Source: a virus
Lineage: Duplodnaviria > Caudoviricetes
Virus record (IMG/VR): IMGVR_UViG_3300009370_000001
Length of the DNA: 64,000 bases
Direction: 5' to 3' (one strand)
Below are positions 32,580 through 52,784 of this stretch, in pieces. Position 1 is the first letter of the stretch; every line of letters starts with the position of its first letter. The notes beneath the pieces are model-generated. The model did no database searches and was not told the origin of the DNA. It worked only from the letters and a program-made list of their open reading frames with translations. Made by a program: the position numbers and the translations under genes.

Positions 32580-34187
32580 ATGAAGAATTTAAAAAAAATT
32601 GCCATTTTGTGTGCTAGCCTACTAATAAGCTGCAGCGATTATGAGTTAAATCCAAAAGTAGAAGAAATTCCTATTATTGAATCGCCCAATATTGAGGTGA
32701 CACCTTCTTCTCTTAATTTTGGACACTTAGATGCCGGCGTGGGCGAGTCCAAAGCCCAAGTCATTACAATTACCAACGTGGGGAACAAAGATCTTAACTT
32801 ATCCCATGTTGGCTTAGATGCCGCTGACTTAGTGTATACAATTACACTCCCCCATTTAACGACGCTAGAGCCCGATCAAGCGACTCGTGTGACAGTTACT
32901 TATATACCGCGCACGTATGAGACGAATTCCAATAGTGTTCTCATTAATTCTAATGACCCTGACGAAGCAGTGGTGAAAGTACCCCTAAGAGGTGAAAGCT
33001 CGGCGCCGGTTATTGAAATCGATCCGACTTATTATGATTTCGGCACAACCTATATTGGATGCGAAGCTAAAACTGTAGTCGGCATTACCAACGTTGGTGA
33101 TTCTGATTTAGTGATCACTGACATCCAATATTTTGTTTCTTACCCTCCGGAACTTTCCATTGAAATCGACACCGCCGCCATGGGTCCCTTTCCATGGACA
33201 TTAGAACCCAACGAGAGGCAGCTTGTTACTATCTATCATGAACCATGGGACATCCAGGAAGATTCTGGCTTTGTCGAAGTACACTCCAGCGACCCGGCTA
33301 CGCCTATAGCTCAAGCCGATCAAGAAGCTATGGGGGATTATTATGCCTGGGCCTCTGACTTTTACGAACAAGAAGAAGTAGCGAATGCCGATATCTTGTT
33401 TATAATTGATAATTCGTGTTCAATGCACAGCCATCAAACCAATCTTAGTAACAACTTTTCTTCTTTTATAAGTGTCTTTGCTAATTCTGGTGTAGATTAT
33501 CAAATCGCCTTCATTACGACCGATAATGAAAATTTTGTTAATGGAAAGATAATACGCAGTACAGATGCCGATCCCATCGGAGATGTTACGGATATTATCA
33601 GCCAAATTAGCATTACGGGCCATGGTCTTGAGCGAGGATTATGGGAAAGCTATGAAGCCACGCAGGCTGGTGCAGACGCAGGTCCTGGAAGTACCTTTCT
33701 TCGAAATGACTCTCGACTTGTGATGGTTTACCTCTCGGATGAGCGCGACGGTTCCACCACATATTCGTCGATGACACCTACTGATTATGCCAACCATCTC
33801 CTGACACTGAAACCTTTATCCGATCAATTATCAATTAACGCAGTTGCTGGCGATCATCCGAATGGCTGCAGCCCTCCATACGCCCAGCATGGCGCCGGCT
33901 ATTATGAAGTCGTCCAACAACTGGGAGGAACGTTTATGTCTATTTGTGCTACTGACTATGGATTACAGATGGATACCTTGGCGCGAGATTCAATTTTATT
34001 AAGCGCGTTTGAGCTTTCAGATATTCCCATTGAAGAAAGCATTATTGTAACAGTAGATGGCTACCAGTCGACCAACTGGACCTACAATTCCACCGAGAAT
34101 GCCATTTATTTTGACGCGTCGGCTATTCCTCCTACAGATGCAGAGATTTATATAGATTATGCGGTTTTAGCCGAATGCCCCCAATAA
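32580..34187 (+). CDS. Lipoprotein with two Ig-like (choice-of-anchor D / ASH-type) domains and a vWA domain
   Basis: Lipobox LLISC; LNFG...ITITNVGNKDL and YDFG...ITNVGDSDL repeats; ILFIIDNSCSM (DxSxS); YLSDE. Confidence 0.85.
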   Translation: MKNLKKIAILCASLLISCSDYELNPKVEEIPIIESPNIEVTPSSLNFGHLDAGVGESKAQVITITNVGNKDLNLSHVGLDAADLVYTITLPHLTTLEPDQATRVTVTYIPRTYETNSNSVLINSNDPDEAVVKVPLRGESSAPVIEIDPTYYDFGTTYIGCEAKTVVGITNVGDSDLVITDIQYFVSYPPELSIEIDTAAMGPFPWTLEPNERQLVTIYHEPWDIQEDSGFVEVHSSDPATPIAQADQEAMGDYYAWASDFYEQEEVANADILFIIDNSCSMHSHQTNLSNNFSSFISVFANSGVDYQIAFITTDNENFVNGKIIRSTDADPIGDVTDIISQISITGHGLERGLWESYEATQAGADAGPGSTFLRNDSRLVMVYLSDERDGSTTYSSMTPTDYANHLLTLKPLSDQLSINAVAGDHPNGCSPPYAQHGAGYYEVVQQLGGTFMSICATDYGLQMDTLARDSILLSAFELSDIPIEESIIVTVDGYQSTNWTYNSTENAIYFDASAIPPTDAEIYIDYAVLAECPQ

Positions 34188-34232: not shown

Positions 34233-34961
34233 ATGAAATTTTTAAGTATAGTACTCGGCGCGCTGTTAGTAAGTCCCACTCACGCCACCGAAATCATTAA
34301 AACCCACGATACTGACACCCGGACAATTGAGATAAGTTCGCAGATGTCTGACACTGAAATGGCCGTGCGGGGTGCCGCAGTGCGAGTAACGAGATTTGGA
34401 GAAGGCGGCCATGGCTCGGGTTCCCTGGTGCAGTATAAGGACGTCCAACTTGTTTTGACAGCCCAGCATGTAGCTGACGCCATTATTGGTACACCTTATC
34501 GTATTACCCATGATGGTGAAATACGCGAAGGTATTTTAATATATTCAAATGAGGCACACGATATTGCAGTTTTATGGGTACAAGTGCCATGGCCACGTGG
34601 ACACGCACTAAAGTGGGATCCCACCACAGAAGTTGCTGAGGTGGGATCAAAAATAACTTATTCGGGCTTTCCCGGGCCACATAGTTTGATGACTTATCGT
34701 GGCCGTGTTGCGGGTTATGAGTTAATGCCTGATGGCTCTACTAACATTTTACTCCACACTTATGGATATTTTGGATGTTCAGGCGCCGTAATTTACAACG
34801 CAGACAAAGAAATTGTAGGAATCCTATGGGGAATCGATAGAGGGCGTATTGCCCCTATAGAAGATATGATATGGGTATCTCCGATACAGAATTTAAATAT
34901 TGATTTATCATTGCGAGGATTGTGTCAGACATTACGTAATGAACCACGCGCATGCCGATGA
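34233..34961 (+). CDS. Secreted trypsin-like serine protease
   Basis: Signal peptide; VLTAQHVA, HDIAVL, YFGCSGAVIY. Confidence 0.85.
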   Translation: MKFLSIVLGALLVSPTHATEIIKTHDTDTRTIEISSQMSDTEMAVRGAAVRVTRFGEGGHGSGSLVQYKDVQLVLTAQHVADAIIGTPYRITHDGEIREGILIYSNEAHDIAVLWVQVPWPRGHALKWDPTTEVAEVGSKITYSGFPGPHSLMTYRGRVAGYELMPDGSTNILLHTYGYFGCSGAVIYNADKEIVGILWGIDRGRIAPIEDMIWVSPIQNLNIDLSLRGLCQTLRNEPRACR

Positions 34962-35413
34962 AATATTCATGGAAAGGCTTTCTTGGCGAAGGCAAAGAAT
35001 CAGAAGTTGGAATTGTTGCTTGTCTAAACGATGAGCAACAATTTCTTATTTTAAGACGTTCAGAGATGGATGATCGAGCAGGGCAATGGACAATGCCGGG
35101 AGGACATATTGATCCAGAAGACAGTTCTATAGAAGCCGGCACACTTCGAGAATTGAACGAGGAAGCTAATTTAACGTGTAAAATTAGTAATTTAATGTAT
35201 TTGGGCTCTCCAAAAAAGAAAAAATACTATTTTTTGGCTCTTAAGTGGTCGGGAGAAGTAAGTGTAGATAAGCCAAATCCAAAAACTGACGAAATTGAAC
35301 ACGATGACTACAAATGGGCAACAATTAATGAGATAAAAGACATTGACGATACTAATATTCCGATCTATTTACTGGAGAAAGCTTTAGAAATCCAAAAGGA
35401 AGGTGAAGAATGA
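34958..35413 (+). CDS. NUDIX hydrolase with leader-like N-terminus
   Basis: PGGHIDPEDSSIEAGTLRELNEE Nudix box; N-terminus MKYSWKGFLGE. Confidence 0.9.
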   Translation: MKYSWKGFLGEGKESEVGIVACLNDEQQFLILRRSEMDDRAGQWTMPGGHIDPEDSSIEAGTLRELNEEANLTCKISNLMYLGSPKKKKYYFLALKWSGEVSVDKPNPKTDEIEHDDYKWATINEIKDIDDTNIPIYLLEKALEIQKEGEE

Positions 35414-35667
35414 GGTTTTTAACACTATTTTTGATGTTCTCGACCACTGCGATGGCAGACACGCCAGAAGAACCAACAAACGAGCGACAAATCGTTTACA
35501 AACAACGCACAGAAATTGACTTTGAAGGTCTTGAAATCGAGGGAACACTCGTTCGACCTCAAGGCGCCCTAATCTTAGACAGAACGGCTGGATCATTTAA
35601 TCCTCTTATCCGTTTAAGAATGGATTTCGAGCCAGAATTAAACAACTCGGTGAATTACATAAAATGA
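35410..35667 (+). CDS. Adventurous gliding motility protein CglF/GltF-like secreted protein
   Basis: Signal peptide; IVYKQRTEIDFEGLEIEGTLVRPQG...FNPLIRLRMDFEPELNNSV matches the recalled myxobacterial CglF/GltF pattern. Confidence 0.75.
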   Translation: MRFLTLFLMFSTTAMADTPEEPTNERQIVYKQRTEIDFEGLEIEGTLVRPQGALILDRTAGSFNPLIRLRMDFEPELNNSVNYIK

Positions 35668-35761
35668 AAACTCTCGATAAAGCTTTAGAAGAACTTTCAG
35701 CCGCAGAACTGGCGGAATACGAAGAAGTCATCGAACTTTGGATTACATATGGTGGCGACTG

Positions 35762-36256
35762 ATGAAACTTATAATGGAAAATTGGCGGCGTTATTTAACA
35801 GAACAAGAAGCTTCTTGGGGAGACTGGACAATTGAAGAACTCGAAGACTTAATTAAAAATGCTCGTGAAGAAGAGAATGTACAAGCCAAAAAATGGCTTG
35901 GGAAAACAATGGGTATTGAATTTATAAAACTCATTCCTGTTCTTGGTCACGCATTAACTGGAGGTGAGGTCTTGAGCGGTCTTTATAAGAAGCACAAGCG
36001 ATCTGAGGCAGAATCCGATGATAATCCTGAAGATTTTCCAATTTTAGATATTTTAGACGTCGATCCTTATCTTATTCAAACACTCGATCAAGAAATTTTA
36101 AATAGTATTGATGAAGAATATGAAAAATATTTACATGGCTTGCCGGCCGGAACGCGCATAAAAGACATCACCGATATTAATGATTTTATTCGAGGAATCG
36201 TTGCGCGCCAAACGAAGAAGCATGTTACCATTGTTGATCAAAGCGGAGAAGGTTAA
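35762..36256 (+). CDS. Leader-bearing hypothetical protein
   Basis: MKLIMENWRRYLTE. Confidence 0.75.
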   Translation: MKLIMENWRRYLTEQEASWGDWTIEELEDLIKNAREEENVQAKKWLGKTMGIEFIKLIPVLGHALTGGEVLSGLYKKHKRSEAESDDNPEDFPILDILDVDPYLIQTLDQEILNSIDEEYEKYLHGLPAGTRIKDITDINDFIRGIVARQTKKHVTIVDQSGEG

Positions 36257-38856
36257 TGATCAAGGTCCGTATTGGAAAAAAGAAATCGCATTGCGGCGAA
36301 GCCAAGAAAATAGGCTTTGGTCAGGGCACACCTCCAAAAGGTGAATGGTATAAGAAGCAAGAGATCGTCGTTGAAGACACAAAACTCCTCCGCGAACTCA
36401 CTGAAGACGAGCTTGAGCGCGCGCTAGCTGCCGTCGAGGAAATCGATCCCGACGAATTGGCTTTTAACCAAATCTTTGGCGATAAAAAGCGCCTCGTTAT
36501 TGATTTTCCTGTCGCTAATTTAGATTCAGAAGCGGGACGCTTCATTAACATGTGGGGCGATCTGGATGATGTGGAGACCGGCAGCGGCTATAGCGCCGAT
36601 TGGCAAAAAGGAATTATCTCAGGACTGCGCACTATCAAAGATGAAAGTCTTGTTGGTGTGCCTGCCGAGATAGAGCGCGCCGCGTTTGGTTTCGGTGGCG
36701 AGAAAGAAAAAGGCCCGAAACAGAAGAAAGTCCAAATGAAAATTGGAAAATTCTTTGCCAAAATACACGATTTAGCCACAAAGCGTCAAGAGATTATTCA
36801 ACTATATTGGAAAAAGCACCACGAAAAGCATTTTAAAGGCGACCGACCTTATAGAGGGGGCCAAGCAAACTTTTCTCACATTCCAGTCGGAGAGATCCGA
36901 GACCTAATTGGAGACGAAAAAGTGGAGCGTTACGATCAACTGACCAATCAGCTTAAAATGTATTTAGGCACCAAAGGAATGACCCGATTTGCCCAATTTC
37001 CAGACACCGCCCTCCGCGCTGGCGAATACTGGCAGAAAAACGCAGGTTTTATTAAGAAAAACATCGACGGGATGACTAACGATAAATACGCCATCGTTAT
37101 TACGCGTGATCCAGTCGATATGTTTCGCATGAGCGACTTCAATCAAATTACTTCATGCCACTCTCCACCATCAAGACCTTCGGAATCGGGCAATTCATAT
37201 TATAAATGCGCGGTTGCTGAGGCTATGGGTCACGGAGCAGTCGCCTATGTAGTCGACAAGACCGATTTGCTGGCTGCTGCTGACGCTGAGGCGCTTCCAG
37301 AAGCAGAAGACAATATCCAGGAAGGAGAACTTTTTGCGGACGAGACACGGGGCTCTCACGTCGGTTATGAAATGGATCTGGTTCCGCTCTCGCGCATTCG
37401 TTTGCGTCAGTATCGCTATTACGACAGCACCGCTCTAGCAACTGACGCAGCAGACTATGCAAAACCTAGCATTGAAGGCGGCACACAACTGGCTGTGCCT
37501 GAAATTGGAACCACACCATATGGTCTTAATATCCCAGGCTTCCTTGAACGCTTAGAAGGCTGGGCGAGAGAAAACCAGCAAGAGGCCATGACCCAAGTAC
37601 CCAAGACGAGCAAAGGTAAAATAGAGTCGGGAGCCTTTGTACTTTATGGAGGAGCTTATGAAGAAGCTAGAACGAGCGGAGGCATGGGCCGCCGCAAAAT
37701 GCTTGCAAGCTTTTTTGAAGTGCGCTTTGATGAAATGACAGGCGAGCCTCGACAAGACACGTCGACGGAACGCAAACTGCCAAAAGATATTGGAAAAGGA
37801 ATAATTGAGTTTACTGAAGAAGCAGTCGCACGAGTTGCGATGCAATGGAATGACTCTTGGCATCGGAGTTCACCCGGAACTGCCGAACACCCAGGCATGC
37901 AGGTCTTCGCCCGAGTAGAAGACATGGGACAAAACGAGGATGGCGGATATGATTTTGCTATCGAGGGATCCGCAGTGATGCGTGTATTTTGGGATGCCGA
38001 TGAGTGGGAGAGGCTACCAAGAGCCGATGAGACAGATTGGATAGATCGCGAGGTTGCAGAATATGGCTTTGGCTTTGTTCAGGATTTAGTGGTCATTAGG
38101 CGTGGAGATATGATATATGCTAAATTCGATATTAACAATAATGGGGTTTATAATCTCTATCATTACGGTACGTCTATCGAAGTTGATTTAGTACATACTG
38201 GGGTAACTCACTCGCCAGACGGCTTCGAAGAATATTGTCTGGAAATTAACAAGATAGATGATGTTCGAGAAGGACTCAAGGCTGTTCTCTCCACCTTTTT
38301 TAAACGCCAAGGCTGGCTTCAAGGGGGCGCCTACATGCAGTTAGCCATGGATATTGAAAACGACGAACTGACCTCTTATGAATGGGATCTCCGAACAGAC
38401 GGAGAATATGAAGACTCCTATGAAGCCACCGCCACCGTTACACATGACTTTGATCCCGAAGAGTTAAATATCAATCCTGAAGTGTTATTGGGGATTCTTG
38501 AAGACCGGGAATTTAGATTGCTGGTACGCACTCAATTCTTGCATGCGTTGCAGAAAACGACAGGCATAGACTTTCAGTTGGATATCGTGCCCGAGAAAGT
38601 AACGAATATTGGTGGGACGCTGCGGTTTCCATTTACTTTTCAAGTTACAGCCGATGACCCCACTGAACGTGTAGAATTATTTCGCGCTCTCGTTGAAGAG
38701 ATCGACGACGAAGATGATATTGCGGCGCGCTTCGAGAAAGCGATGGCTCACGCACTAAACAACATGAAGCCCGTAGCGTATCGACAGAATTTGGACGAGA
38801 ACAAAAAATATGATGCCGATTGGGCACTAAAAAGATGGAAACAAAATTTTAACTAA
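36256..38856 (+). CDS. 866-aa hypothetical protein, probable virion component
   Basis: Long ORF; LLRE/LTE motifs near the N-terminus; ITRDPVDMFRMSDF...SCHS...CAVAE block. Confidence 0.75.
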   Translation: MIKVRIGKKKSHCGEAKKIGFGQGTPPKGEWYKKQEIVVEDTKLLRELTEDELERALAAVEEIDPDELAFNQIFGDKKRLVIDFPVANLDSEAGRFINMWGDLDDVETGSGYSADWQKGIISGLRTIKDESLVGVPAEIERAAFGFGGEKEKGPKQKKVQMKIGKFFAKIHDLATKRQEIIQLYWKKHHEKHFKGDRPYRGGQANFSHIPVGEIRDLIGDEKVERYDQLTNQLKMYLGTKGMTRFAQFPDTALRAGEYWQKNAGFIKKNIDGMTNDKYAIVITRDPVDMFRMSDFNQITSCHSPPSRPSESGNSYYKCAVAEAMGHGAVAYVVDKTDLLAAADAEALPEAEDNIQEGELFADETRGSHVGYEMDLVPLSRIRLRQYRYYDSTALATDAADYAKPSIEGGTQLAVPEIGTTPYGLNIPGFLERLEGWARENQQEAMTQVPKTSKGKIESGAFVLYGGAYEEARTSGGMGRRKMLASFFEVRFDEMTGEPRQDTSTERKLPKDIGKGIIEFTEEAVARVAMQWNDSWHRSSPGTAEHPGMQVFARVEDMGQNEDGGYDFAIEGSAVMRVFWDADEWERLPRADETDWIDREVAEYGFGFVQDLVVIRRGDMIYAKFDINNNGVYNLYHYGTSIEVDLVHTGVTHSPDGFEEYCLEINKIDDVREGLKAVLSTFFKRQGWLQGGAYMQLAMDIENDELTSYEWDLRTDGEYEDSYEATATVTHDFDPEELNINPEVLLGILEDREFRLLVRTQFLHALQKTTGIDFQLDIVPEKVTNIGGTLRFPFTFQVTADDPTERVELFRALVEEIDDEDDIAARFEKAMAHALNNMKPVAYRQNLDENKKYDADWALKRWKQNFN

Positions 38857-38867
38857 AGGAAGAGAAA

Positions 38868-39518
38868 ATGAGAAAGAGATTAATCGAAGCATGTGCATTT
38901 ATGCTTTTGTTAGTAGCATGCACAACGTTAGTGTTTGGTATTGCAGGATGCAAGCCCAAGTTAACTACCGACGATAGCACAACCCCACCTATCCCCCAGG
39001 TAGATGATTCTGCTATTACAATTTCCCCCACCGATAGCGATGATCGCTCTTGGGTAACTTGGGAGACTTGTTCACAAAAACCAGGAGATCATCCCTGTGA
39101 TTTTGAATTGATGGATCAGCATGGAGATATGGTGAGTCTATACGATTATCACGGAAAGGTTATTGTAATTGATCTGTCAACAATTTGGTGTGGGGTGTGT
39201 AACAACATCGCACAAGAAGGTGATGAGTGGCTCAATGATTATGGTGCGGAAAACTTTATCTGGCTAACTATCTTAATTGATAATGCTACAGGCGATCCTC
39301 CCACATTAGCTGATATCCAGCATTGGGCTACGGTATACGGCATCGAAGTGCCTGTGCTAGTAGGCGACCGAAGCTTAGTAGATCTAACCGCTGAAACGGG
39401 TTATCCGTGCACCGGTTGGCCAACACTAGTTGTAATCGACCGAGAGATGGTTTTACAATACGGTATTAATGGATGGAATGAAACAACCATTCGTGGGTGG
39501 GTGCAAAGTCTGTTATGA
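38868..39518 (+). CDS. Thioredoxin-fold (TlpA/AhpC-TSA-like) lipoprotein
   Basis: Lipobox GIAGC; DFELMDQHG, STIWCGVC (CxxC), GWPTLVVID. Confidence 0.88.
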   Translation: MRKRLIEACAFMLLLVACTTLVFGIAGCKPKLTTDDSTTPPIPQVDDSAITISPTDSDDRSWVTWETCSQKPGDHPCDFELMDQHGDMVSLYDYHGKVIVIDLSTIWCGVCNNIAQEGDEWLNDYGAENFIWLTILIDNATGDPPTLADIQHWATVYGIEVPVLVGDRSLVDLTAETGYPCTGWPTLVVIDREMVLQYGINGWNETTIRGWVQSLL

Positions 39519-52176: not shown

Positions 52177-52402
52177 ATATAACGGACACTATATCATGGG
52201 CGACTTGGTCGGCTCACACAAAACAGAAGCTGCCGCCATGAAAAAAGCAAAGAAAGAAATAAAATTTAAATTTTCTGTGAGAGAAAAGAAAAAGAACGAG
52301 ATACTTATTTGGCTTGATGGTGAAAACCACGAACCACTAGGAGTTATCACACACGAATTAAAGGGGACGAAACGGCCTCGACAGGGTAAGGAGAAAGGAT
52401 AG
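52160..52402 (+). CDS. Hypothetical basic protein; 3' end overlaps the tmRNA
   Basis: MWKVYKYNG...; last 40 nt lie within the tmRNA 5' end. Confidence 0.6.
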   Translation: MWKVYKYNGHYIMGDLVGSHKTEAAAMKKAKKEIKFKFSVREKKKNEILIWLDGENHEPLGVITHELKGTKRPRQGKEKG

Positions 52403-52784
52403 TGCAAGTAGTCAAACGTACCAGCAGACTTTAAATGCAGATACAAAACATAATTGCTAATAATAATAACAATTTCGAATCTGTCCGCTTAGCGGCTTAA
52501 TCGGGTGGTTACCTAAAGCCATCAATCCAATTTAGGTATTTATCGCAACAGGATGGTAAGCGATATCTTATAGCCATCTATCTTTTTGTTAGTTTCTGAT
52601 AGCAAACTGACGCATCGATTGGAAAGGGTGAGGGTTTAGCTTGTCAGTCGATTAATCACCCCGCTTTTGTTGATTTTCACATAGCGGATGCCGGCCGTCA
52701 GACCGGTAAAAATCAACTAAACTTGTGAATGACTTGAATTTTAATATGCTTTGGACGCGGGTTCGACTCCCGCCGTCTCCACCA
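52363..52784 (+). ncRNA. ssrA: tmRNA
   Basis: 5' GGGGACGAAACGGCCTCGAC; 3' GGACGCGGGTTCGACTCCCGCCGTCTCCACCA; acceptor GGGGACG/CGTCTCC with G3-U; tag ANNNNNFESVRLAA* at 52456-52500. Confidence 0.96.

What the first reader, a model, noticed from the sequence alone, without database searches (positions are those of the whole stretch)
35410..35667. Phage-encoded CglF/GltF-like gliding-motility protein
Seen: an 85-aa secreted protein with YKQRTEIDFEGLEIEGTLVRPQGALILDR...FNPLIRLRMDFEPELNNSV. From recall, this closely follows the CglF/GltF proteins of the myxobacterial Agl-Glt gliding outer-membrane complex. Inference: the host is a Myxococcota or Bdellovibrionota relative. The phage may modulate gliding, block its own receptor (superinfection exclusion), or spread the protein by outer-membrane exchange.
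Basis: partly seen in the sequence, partly recalled or inferred. Interest (0 to 1): 0.72.

Follow-up and report, generated by a model that had tools for sequence, protein, structure and literature searches.

The report
Phage copy of gliding-machine linker GltF
A large uncultured marine T4-like phage carries its own well-kept, secreted copy of GltF/CglF, the small periplasmic linker of the myxobacterial gliding (Glt) machine; this points to marine Myxococcota as hosts and suggests that the phage acts on that machine during infection.

Summary
The ORF at 35410-35667 (+) encodes 85 aa with a Sec-type signal peptide.

- **Homology.** It matches NCBIfam CglF (NF033764) over its full length (E 1.2e-11, 44.5 bits). 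That is below the 90-bit equivalog cut-off, but only 3 of 201 sampled Myxococcota genomes reach that cut-off, while 151 match.
- **Cellular relatives.** They are 50-65% identical and come from Myxococcota MAGs. Almost all sit in the gltF slot (GltE-GltF-GltG-CglE).
- **Phage copies.** They form one clade (97/95) nested inside the marine cellular GltF. They are under strong purifying selection (dN/dS 0.04-0.21) and have the phage's own base composition.
- **Phage context.** Three GltF-bearing viral records encode T4-type gp23. A complete one has no GltG or GltC, so the phage protein must act on host partners. The gene is patchy (5 of 35 related viral records) and has no match in 50,697 deposited phage genomes.
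- **Most likely mechanism (inferred).** The protein is exported to the infected cell's periplasm and takes GltF's place between GltG and GltC. Whether it sustains or jams the machine is open.

This scan made the same finding earlier on two related phage genomes (e1-5338328, e1-5338350). I rate it a new variant of a known kind, of moderate to high interest.

The parts
35410..35667 (+). Phage gltF/cglF homologue, 85 aa plus stop
   Evidence: ORF. NF033764 E 1.2e-11, 44.5 bits, protein residues 6-82 against model positions 8-86 of 88. Falls in the phage clade nested within cellular GltF. dN/dS 0.035-0.21. GC3 of 0.40 matches the neighbouring phage genes.
35410..35457 (+). Type I (Sec) signal peptide, residues 1-16; predicted cleavage A-M-A / D17
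   Evidence: Read from the sequence plus a hydropathy profile. All 16 phage copies keep a hydrophobic N-terminus ending in a small-x-small site. M. xanthus CglF is reported to have a type I signal sequence (PMC3325183; PMC3169522 Table 1).
35497..35565 (+). Conserved block 1, residues Y30-G52 (YKQRTEIDFEG...LVRPQG); counterpart of the GltF beta-strand that the published model pairs with the GltG TonB-like C-terminal domain
   Evidence: Invariant columns Y30, T34-G40, G45, L47, P50 and G52 in alignment A1. Aligns with VYKKKTEYDFEDD..EG..VRPEG of the true equivalogs. The segment assignment comes from PMC11761067 and my own renumbering, so it is inferred.
35596..35652 (+). Conserved block 2, residues F63-V81 (FNPLIRLR.DF..E...SV); counterpart of the GltF C-terminal helix that the published model places in a GltC crevice
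   Evidence: Invariant F63-I67, L69, R70, F73, E76 and S80 in A1. Aligns with SSLIRIRENFVPEMLKS of the equivalogs. Segment assignment inferred from PMC11761067.
34952..35413 (+). Context: NUDIX hydrolase gene whose stop overlaps the gltF start (ATGA); no functional link shown
   Evidence: Pfam NUDIX E 1.8e-17; the overlap is seen in the sequence.
34233..34961 (+). Context: secreted trypsin-like serine protease
   Evidence: Pfam Trypsin_2 E 2.6e-11; the N-terminal signal peptide is read from the translation.
32580..34187 (+). Context: lipoprotein with two HYDIN/ASH-type Ig domains and a vWA/MIDAS domain (integrin-like adhesin architecture)
   Evidence: Lipobox L-I-S-C. Choice-of-anchor D E 4e-21. 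Local MIDAS-region hits to the Bdellovibrio MIDAS adhesin and to CglD. Family members pass the Pfam VWA threshold. AF2 model pLDDT 86. PDB fold hits to ASH/HYDIN Ig domains and to integrin/ITIH vWA domains.
35664..35762 (+). Context: conserved 32-aa ORF whose start overlaps the gltF stop
   Evidence: Called as a gene in all six loci that carry the identical GltF; overlap seen in the sequence.

Best explanation
The gene is a true, host-derived homologue of GltF/CglF, the roughly 90-aa periplasmic linker of the myxobacterial Agl-Glt (Glt/Nfs-type) envelope-spanning machine. An ancestor of this group of large marine T4-like phages captured it once from a marine Myxococcota lineage, and a subset of those phages has kept it as an accessory gene.

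In the infected cell the protein is exported by Sec and loses its signal peptide. It then occupies the GltF position in the host's own machine. Its conserved strand (YKQRTEIDFEG...) adds to the TonB-like C-terminal domain of host GltG, and its conserved C-terminal helix (FNPLIRLR.DF..E) sits in host GltC.

Both interaction segments are kept as strictly as in cellular GltF, and the phage encodes no GltG or GltC. I therefore favour a working substitute that keeps the linker position filled, under phage control, after host gene expression stops. That is the logic of cyanophage psbA.

What is shown: homology, phage residence, single origin, purifying selection, and the lack of phage-encoded partners. 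What is inferred: export, binding to host GltG and GltC, and above all the direction of the effect.

My odds: about 0.9 for identity and origin, about 0.7 for action through host GltG/GltC, and about 0.45 for 'sustains' rather than 'blocks'. The confidence figure given for this explanation is for the whole chain.
For: **Homology.**
- NF033764 gives E 1.2e-11 over the full length.
- A GltF from a bona fide marine glt cluster scores about the same, 46.6 bits.
- 151 of 201 sampled Myxococcota genomes match the model, only 3 at 90 bits or more, and 0 of 14 control genomes match.
- Identity to the true equivalogs is about 40% across the mature region.

**Synteny of cellular relatives.** About 70 of 77 loci read GltC - GltD-like - GltE - GltF - GltG - CglE.

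**Phage residence.**
- The same neighbours appear on at least 24 contigs, including ones of 202-204 kb.
- IMG/VR relatives have no glt genes nearby.
- gp23 is present in the GltF-bearing records G001, G005 and the complete G235.
- The window itself holds PhoH, a phage-type GroEL, a MoxR-type ATPase, a tail-fibre-like protein, tRNAs and a tmRNA.

**Single origin, nested.** The phage clade has support 97/95 and appears in 98% of bootstrap trees. It lies under nodes 98/85, 99/88 and 99/93 of the marine cellular GltF, with the Myxococcales-type equivalogs as outgroup (also 36).

**Function kept.** dN/dS is 0.035-0.21, every copy keeps a signal peptide, and both blocks are invariant.

**Old resident.** GC3 is 0.40, like the phage neighbours, against 0.58-0.76 in most cellular gltF genes.

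**Orphan.** No GltG C-terminal domain and no GltC were found in the complete G235 or in four fragments. No other Glt family was found among 14 window proteins scanned with NCBIfam.

**Binding test, weak support only**. Phage GltF residues 17-85 were folded against the GltG C-terminal domain of a marine MAG.
- Score 0.32; best of 3 controls 0.00.
- That mark was reached by 58 of 80 solved complexes and by 2 of 110 mismatched pairs.
- At scores of 0.60 or under it was reached by only 7 of those 80, and by both of the mismatches that passed.
- The runs agree in at least 87% of contacts; partner pLDDT is at least 48.

**Literature.** GltF is needed for gliding and sits at focal adhesions (PMC3169522). 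It is modelled as a bridge between GltC and the GltG TonB-like C-terminal domain (PMC11761067).
Against: - The host is unknown. No CRISPR, Hi-C or culture link exists.
- The phage has 44.5% G+C, against 50-73% in the MAG loci that carry GltF.
- The complex prediction is only weak support, and it used a stand-in host.
- The partner-binding segments of GltF are themselves known only from an AlphaFold model, not from experiment (PMC11761067).
- The gene is patchy among related phages: 5 of 35 records have it, and one complete 293-kb relative lacks it. It is therefore dispensable for the phage life cycle.
- Nothing shows when it is expressed. No promoter signal above chance lies nearby.
- A linker that keeps both interfaces could also uncouple its two partners if made in excess. 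Conservation alone therefore cannot tell sustaining from jamming.
- The job of the Glt/Nfs-type cluster in these marine bacteria is unknown; the M. xanthus paralogues serve sporulation or unknown roles (PMC3169522).
Confidence: 0.5

Rival explanations
1. Jamming or decoupling. The phage makes GltF in excess, or a subtly altered GltF. It saturates GltG and GltC separately and so disconnects the proton-driven Agl motor from the outer-membrane part. This stops gliding or surface adhesion and saves proton-motive force for phage production.
For: The homology and orphan-status evidence is the same as for the best explanation. A two-sided linker in excess can uncouple its partners (general reasoning). 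The phage clade differs consistently in a few core positions: E-I-E-G against D/E-V-x-G, and L-I-L-D-R against L-L-L-D-R-K.
Against: Both interfaces are conserved as strictly as in cellular GltF, whereas a pure inhibitor needs only one. Nothing indicates high expression.
Confidence: 0.22
2. Superinfection exclusion or receptor control. By binding the periplasmic side of the Glt complex, the phage protein changes how the outer-membrane Glt module (GltA/B/H/K-CglB type) is displayed. If that module is the phage's receptor, later phages can no longer adsorb or inject. This would resemble T5 Llp or phi80 Cor acting on FhuA.
For: The protein is exported, small and accessory, and sits among other phage envelope proteins: a lipoprotein adhesin, a secreted protease and a TlpA-like lipoprotein. 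Its patchy distribution is typical of exclusion genes.
Against: There is no evidence that any Glt part is the receptor. No similarity to known exclusion proteins was found (PHROGs: no hit). Known exclusion lipoproteins are not copies of host subunits.
Confidence: 0.1
3. Part of a phage-built envelope module. GltF works with phage-encoded envelope proteins, such as the Ig-Ig-vWA lipoprotein and the secreted protease. For example, it could couple a phage adhesin to the host motor and make infected cells sticky.
For: In the window and its closest relatives the order is lipoprotein - protease - NUDIX - GltF. The lipoprotein is an integrin-like vWA adhesin by fold, with local hits to CglD and to the Bdellovibrio MIDAS adhesin. 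In M. xanthus the Glt machine displays the vWA adhesin CglB (PMC9946355).
Against: The linkage is not kept. Only 3 of 40 loci with the lipoprotein have GltF within 10 kb, and 30 of 35 records with the lipoprotein lack GltF altogether. The hits to CglD and the MIDAS adhesin cover only the MIDAS motif and lie far below the cut-offs.
Confidence: 0.08
4. Not a phage gene, or not functional: a piece of host DNA in a chimeric or mis-binned contig, or a decaying passenger gene.
For: Some homologous contigs are filed under cellular names such as 'Flavobacteriales' or 'Pacearchaeota'.
Against: The context is identical on at least 24 contigs from many samples. The gene is conserved across phages that have diverged to 52% identity, with dN/dS of 0.21 or less. 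Its composition matches the phage. gp23 lies on the same records.
Confidence: 0.02

Closest known systems
GltF = CglF of Myxococcus xanthus (MXAN_4868; NCBIfam NF033764)
   Same: Similar size (85 against 89 aa), a type I signal peptide, and collinear homology across the mature protein (about 40% identity to genomic copies that score above the equivalog cut-off). Both conserved segments are present.
   Different: It is encoded by a phage with no gltE, gltG or gltC beside it or anywhere in a complete relative. It scores 44.5 bits, below the 90-bit equivalog cut-off. It belongs to the marine 'TEIDFEG / FNPLI' subfamily, not the Myxococcales 'TEYDFEDD / HSSLI' type.
GltF of uncultured marine Myxococcota, in contiguous glt/nfs-like clusters (for example L007, L028, L063)
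   Same: 50-65% identity, the same length, and the same invariant residues. The phage clade nests inside this group.
   Different: The cellular copies always lie between gltE and gltG and have GC3 of 0.58-0.76, apart from one low-GC genome. The phage copies stand alone with GC3 around 0.40.
NfsF of the M. xanthus Nfs sporulation machine (a paralogue of GltF)
   Same: The same protein family and the same kind of contiguous A-H cluster as in the marine MAGs (PMC3169522).
   Different: I did not compare it directly, because no NfsF sequence was retrieved by name. It shows that a GltF-type linker need not mean gliding.
Phage auxiliary genes that copy one subunit of a host machine (for example cyanophage psbA/D1 in T4-like cyanophages)
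   Same: A host-derived single subunit, kept under purifying selection in T4-like marine phages, with the partners supplied by the host.
   Different: This one is a structural linker of a motility/envelope machine, not a metabolic or photosynthetic protein. Any benefit to the phage is unknown. The comparison rests on my general knowledge and was not tested here.
TonB-box strand addition to TonB C-terminal domains, and phage or colicin use of Ton/Tol systems
   Same: In the published model, GltF binds the TonB-like C-terminal domain of GltG by adding a beta-strand (PMC11761067). The phage keeps exactly that strand.
   Different: This protein is made inside the infected cell and exported. It is not an incoming virion or toxin part.

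Membership tests
GltF/CglF (NCBIfam NF033764, equivalog) | Score at or above the curated equivalog cut-off (90 bits) | tested here: not met
   44.5 bits. The cut-off is narrow: only 3 of 201 Myxococcota genomes reach it, and a syntenic marine GltF scores 46.6 bits.
GltF/CglF (family in the broad sense) | Significant, collinear, full-length homology to the family profile | tested here: met
   E 1.2e-11 over model positions 8-86 of 88. 0 of 14 control genomes match the model. About 40% identity to copies above the cut-off.
GltF/CglF (family in the broad sense) | Small (about 85-95 aa) exported protein with a type I signal peptide | tested here: met
   85 aa. Signal peptide read from the sequence and a hydropathy profile, with no dedicated predictor. 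All phage copies keep it.
GltF/CglF (family in the broad sense) | Conserved strand segment and C-terminal helix segment (the modelled GltG and GltC contacts) | tested here: met
   Both blocks are invariant across phage and cellular copies. The contact roles come from an AlphaFold model in PMC11761067.
GltF/CglF (family in the broad sense) | Falls inside the clade of syntenic gltF genes in a tree | tested here: met
   The phage clade (97/95) is nested under starred nodes of marine cellular GltF. Only 87 alignment columns, so the exact donor is not resolved.
GltF/CglF (family in the broad sense) | Encoded between gltE and gltG within a glt/nfs cluster | tested here: not met
   The neighbours are a NUDIX gene and a 32-aa ORF. 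No glt genes occur in 15 + 40 viral loci, nor in the complete record G235.
GltF/CglF (family in the broad sense) | Binds the GltG C-terminal domain and GltC; localises to the machine; needed for its function | tested here: inconclusive
   Complex prediction with a MAG GltG C-terminal domain gave weak support: 0.32 against a best control of 0.00. That mark was reached by 58 of 80 solved complexes and 2 of 110 mismatched pairs. At 0.60 or under it was reached by only 7 of those 80 and by both mismatches that passed. GltC was not tested. No wet-lab data exist.
Phage accessory gene of host origin (auxiliary gene / moron) | Host-derived, resident in phage genomes, under purifying selection, patchy among relatives | tested here: met
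   origin; phage residence; selection; 5 of 35 records.
T4-like phage (context of the gene) | T4-type major capsid protein gp23 | tested here: met
   Met for three GltF-bearing relatives: G001 at 1.4e-65, G005 at 2.5e-62 and G235 at 2.4e-61. The window's own 203-kb genome could not be searched. Earlier scan notes call it T4-like; I did not check that.
Superinfection-exclusion envelope proteins (Llp, Cor, Imm/Sp type) | Sequence or family similarity to known exclusion proteins; blocks adsorption or injection | tested here: not met
   No PHROGs family hit. The functional part cannot be tested with these tools.

The most novel reading that the evidence does not exclude
The phage GltF is a tool for commandeering the host's proton-driven Agl-Glt machine. 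It plugs into the GltG TonB-like domain and GltC, and so re-couples the motor to phage-chosen outputs. One example would be display of the phage's own integrin-like vWA lipoprotein, in place of the host adhesin CglB, so that infected cells change how they stick to and move on particles or prey. Alternatively it locks the machine to exclude other phages. Either case would be the first known viral reprogramming of a bacterial focal-adhesion motility complex.
Probability: 0.12. Interest if true: 0.85.

Novelty: new variant of a known kind. Interest (0 to 1): 0.62.

Why it matters
- **A new kind of phage gene.** GltF has been described only as a chromosomal gene of Myxococcales and Bdellovibrionales (PMC3169522). 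I found no homologue in 50,697 deposited phage genomes. My full-text searches found no paper reporting a phage-borne Glt component.
- **A host marker.** The gene offers a way to link an abundant group of uncultured marine T4-like phages of about 200 kb to marine Myxococcota, a host group with few known phages.
- **A natural experiment on a poorly understood protein.** The phage has kept only GltF, the least understood and largely disordered linker of the machine. It has kept exactly the two segments that an AlphaFold model proposes as contacts. That is independent evolutionary support for those contacts.
- **A practical reagent.** It gives a compact 69-residue protein with which to test the contacts.
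- **A wider point.** If the phage sustains or blocks the machine, surface motility and adhesion join the host functions that marine viruses manipulate.

Tried and rejected
- **Family searches on the 85-aa protein.** Pfam found no family even at E 10. PHROGs found none.
- **Similarity to deposited phages.** Megablast of 12 kb around the gene found no match. tblastn of the protein found only a chance hit (E 0.5) in a Bacillus phage.
- **The window's own genome.** None is held, and the 202-kb ENA record behind L001 cannot be searched. T4 identity was therefore tested on IMG/VR relatives instead.
- **Portal search (PF07230).** It matched nothing anywhere, controls included, so it is uninformative.
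- **Extending past the window end.** The stretch beyond PhoH showed glycosyltransferases but no T4 core genes.
- **Fold of the neighbouring lipoprotein.** The single-sequence fold failed (pLDDT 33). It was repeated with an alignment.
- **tmRNA as a host marker.**
  - The phage tag is ANNNNNFESVRLAA. Four Myxococcota MAG tags begin ANNNEGF, ANNNDSF or ANNNNHF.
  - Nucleotide similarity is confined to the universally conserved tRNA-like ends, and overall identity is 45-51%.
  - No other phyla could be compared. I treat this as compatible but weak.
- **Promoter and terminator scans.** Nothing above chance near the gene, and no T4-late TATAAATA within 8 kb.
- **Expression.** No RNA holder was listed among public runs.
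- **Solved structures.** No relative found.
- **Tight functional linkage to the Ig-vWA lipoprotein.** Rejected, because the linkage is not kept.
- **Chance motif resemblance.** Rejected, because the homology runs the full length.
- **Pathak & Wall 2012** (the original cglF paper, PMC3318471) is not held.

Full report
**Observation.** The ORF at 35410..35667 on the + strand is present as described. It has an ATG start and encodes 85 aa. Its start overlaps the stop of the upstream NUDIX gene (ATGA), and its stop overlaps the start of a conserved 32-aa ORF. The gene is therefore one link in a long one-strand gene train. Residues 1-16 read as a type I signal peptide: Arg2, a hydrophobic core, then A-M-A before D17, with no lipobox cysteine. 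This is read from the sequence; no predictor was run.

The gene is real:
- The identical protein lies on at least 24 contigs from different samples, always with the same neighbours. Several of these contigs are 202-204 kb long.
- The word-indexed search found 160 homologues. The exhaustive profile search found 1190 cluster representatives at E <= 0.001.
- Pairwise dN/dS among phage copies is 0.035-0.21. Most amino-acid changes lie in the signal peptide and the acidic linker.

**Is it GltF/CglF?** Pfam and PHROGs find nothing. NCBIfam's CglF model NF033764 matches residues 6-82 to model positions 8-86 of 88, with E 1.2e-11 and 44.5 bits. That is below the 90-bit equivalog cut-off, so I asked what the cut-off means.
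- In 201 genomes sampled across Myxococcota, 151 match the model but only 3 reach 90 bits. None of 14 control genomes matches.
- A marine Myxococcota protein that sits in an unmistakable glt cluster scores 46.6 bits, about the same as the phage protein.
- Against genomic copies at or near the cut-off, the phage protein aligns over the whole mature region at about 40% identity. For example, VYKKKTEYDFEDD..EG..VRPEG pairs with VYKQRTEIDFEGLEIEG.LVRPQG, and the two C-terminal parts also align (SSLIRIRENFVPEM against FNPLIRLRMDFEPEL).

So it belongs to the GltF family in the broad sense but is not an equivalog of the M. xanthus protein. CglF and GltF are the same protein (PMC4488436). It is MXAN_4868, 89 aa with a signal peptide. 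It is needed for gliding, and it is recruited to focal adhesion clusters (PMC3169522).

**Cellular relatives and their context.** A scan of one genome per species returned 77 loci. Nearly all are Myxococcota MAGs. Many record titles are placeholder names, and one is labelled Oligoflexia. In about 70 of them the gene lies in the same place: two small outer-membrane-type genes, then GltC, a GltD-like TPR giant, GltE, GltF, GltG, CglE (GltH), and often an Ig-domain protein. This is a contiguous glt/nfs-type cluster. Such clusters have diversified in function in M. xanthus, where they serve gliding, sporulation or unknown roles (PMC3169522). I therefore call the host machine 'Glt/Nfs-type' and do not assume that it drives gliding.

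**Is it on a phage?**
- The window has the look of a large phage: genes almost all on one strand and many small ORFs without matches. It also has PHROG hits to PhoH, a phage GroEL, a MoxR-type ATPase, an HNH endonuclease and tail-fibre proteins, plus four tRNAs and a tmRNA.
- Fifteen IMG/VR viral contigs carry homologues at 52-95% identity, with phage neighbours and no glt genes.
- Three GltF-bearing viral records encode a T4-type major capsid protein gp23: G001, G005 and G235, the last rated 100% complete at 185 kb.
- The window's own 203-kb genome could not be searched. Earlier notes of this scan call it T4-like, which I could check only through these relatives.

**Origin.**
- In a tree of 99 sequences, with the Myxococcales-type copies as outgroup, the phage copies form one clade. 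Support is 97/95, and the clade appears in 98% of bootstrap trees.
- That clade lies under several well-supported nodes (98/85, 99/88, 99/93) of the marine cellular GltF. A first tree with another outgroup agrees.
- With only 87 columns the exact donor is not resolved; the immediate sister has no support.
- The phage gene has the base composition of its phage neighbours (GC3 0.40). Most cellular gltF genes have GC3 of 0.58-0.76.
- The phage copies have diverged among themselves to about 52% identity.

Together this indicates one old capture from a marine Myxococcota lineage, followed by long residence in phages.

**Distribution in phages.** The gene is accessory.
- Among 35 viral records that share the neighbouring Ig-vWA lipoprotein family, 5 carry GltF. 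Of the two complete genomes, one has it (G235) and one lacks it (G222, 293 kb).
- Its position varies. Only the window's closest relatives keep the order lipoprotein - protease - NUDIX - GltF.
- No homologue exists in 50,697 deposited phage genomes.

**Mechanism.** An AlphaFold-based model of the M. xanthus machine describes GltF as a mostly disordered periplasmic bridge. One strand pairs with the TonB-like C-terminal domain of GltG, and the C-terminal helix sits in a crevice of GltC (PMC11761067). By my renumbering, these two segments correspond to the two blocks that are almost invariant in all phage and cellular copies: Y30-G52 and F63-V81.

The phages do not supply the partners. Neither the GltG C-terminal domain family nor GltC was found in the complete genome G235 or in four fragments. 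No other Glt family appears among the window's larger proteins.

A complex prediction of the mature phage protein with the GltG C-terminal domain of a marine MAG gave only weak support:
- The score was 0.32, and the best of three controls was 0.00.
- That mark was reached by 58 of 80 solved complexes and by 2 of 110 mismatched pairs.
- At 0.60 or under it was reached by only 7 of those 80, and by both of the mismatches that passed.
- The runs agree in at least 87% of contacts, and the partner's pLDDT is at least 48.

I conclude, by inference, that the protein is exported into the periplasm of the infected cell and takes the GltF position in the host's machine. Both interfaces are kept as strictly as in cellular GltF. 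I therefore favour a working substitute that keeps the linker position filled once host expression stops. However, an excess of a two-sided linker would uncouple its partners, so jamming cannot be excluded. Superinfection exclusion and cooperation with phage envelope proteins are less likely rivals.

**Host.** The nesting of the phage clade inside Myxococcota GltF is the main evidence for a Myxococcota host.
- The family's restriction to Myxococcota and Bdellovibrionota agrees with this (PMC3169522; controls).
- The phage tmRNA tag (ANNNNNF...) resembles tags of four GltF-bearing marine Myxococcota MAGs (ANNNEGF, ANNNDSF, ANNNNHF).
- However, the tmRNA nucleotide similarity is limited to the universal ends, and I had no other phyla for comparison. 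This line is weak.
- The phage's 44.5% G+C is below that of the candidate hosts (50-57% in the lowest-GC ones). A gap in that direction is usual for T4-like phages (general knowledge), but it is not evidence.

**Comparison and novelty.** The protein is a new, phage-borne, stand-alone variant of a known family. My literature searches found no report of a phage-encoded Glt component. A 2026 preprint on myxophage auxiliary genes mentions gliding only in connection with surface-glycan genes. The same finding was made earlier in this scan on two related phage genomes (e1-5338328, e1-5338350). My results agree with those notes and add:
- the calibration of the equivalog cut-off;
- the rooted tree;
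- the patchy distribution;
- the absence of partners in a complete phage genome;
- a downgrading of the tmRNA argument.

**Verdict.** Interest is moderate to high. The finding gives a testable host link for an abundant uncultured phage group and a natural probe of the least understood Glt component. The physiological effect is still unknown.

Noticed in passing
window 52363-52784 (+): A phage-encoded tmRNA with tag peptide ANNNNNFESVRLAA. Four GltF-bearing marine Myxococcota MAGs have tags that begin ANNNEGF, ANNNDSF or ANNNNHF. Nucleotide similarity is confined to the tRNA-like ends.
   Followed up: partly
window 32580-34187 (+): A 535-aa lipoprotein with two HYDIN/ASH-type Ig domains, a vWA/MIDAS domain (motif D-N-S-C-S) and a C-terminal beta-sandwich. 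The AF2 model has pLDDT 86, and the PDB matches are integrin and ITIH vWA domains. The family is widespread in large T4-like marine phages, at about 530 aa each. It has only local, sub-threshold hits to CglD and to the Bdellovibrio MIDAS adhesin.
   Followed up: partly
window 34233-34961 and 38868-39518 (+): Two more exported phage proteins lie near GltF: a secreted trypsin-like serine protease and a TlpA/ResA-like thiol-disulfide oxidoreductase lipoprotein. The phage invests heavily in periplasmic and envelope proteins.
   Followed up: no
L007 13173-14306 and the same position in about 45 other cellular loci: Marine glt clusters usually end with an Ig-domain (choice-of-anchor D / HYDIN-like) protein just after CglE. 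It shares only domain-level similarity (21-36% identity) with the N-terminal half of the phage lipoprotein.
   Followed up: partly
L100, L101, L103 (Myxococcota genomes); P0151, P0152, P0170, P0193, P0213 and others: The GltF strand motif (RTEIDFEG..V.G.L.KP.G) also occurs as one segment of much longer proteins. In proteins of 260-310 aa it is followed by a charged coiled-coil-like part and a proline-rich part. In proteins of 600-1345 aa it lies near residues 600-1000. It may be a portable docking motif for TonB-like domains.
   Followed up: no
G222 (IMG/VR record behind L137), 176509-180120: This complete 293-kb T4-like relative, which lacks GltF, has two gp23-type major capsid genes in tandem.
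   Followed up: no
window 36256-38856 (+): An 866-aa protein with no Pfam, PHROGs or NCBIfam match. It is conserved at 30-38% identity in many related phages and often lies next to GltF or the NUDIX gene.
   Followed up: no
L110 13148-21338 (same phage genome, just past the window's end): A block of glycosyltransferases, an epimerase and a sialyltransferase-family (Glyco_transf_29) gene lies downstream of PhoH. This suggests that the phage modifies surface glycans.
   Followed up: no
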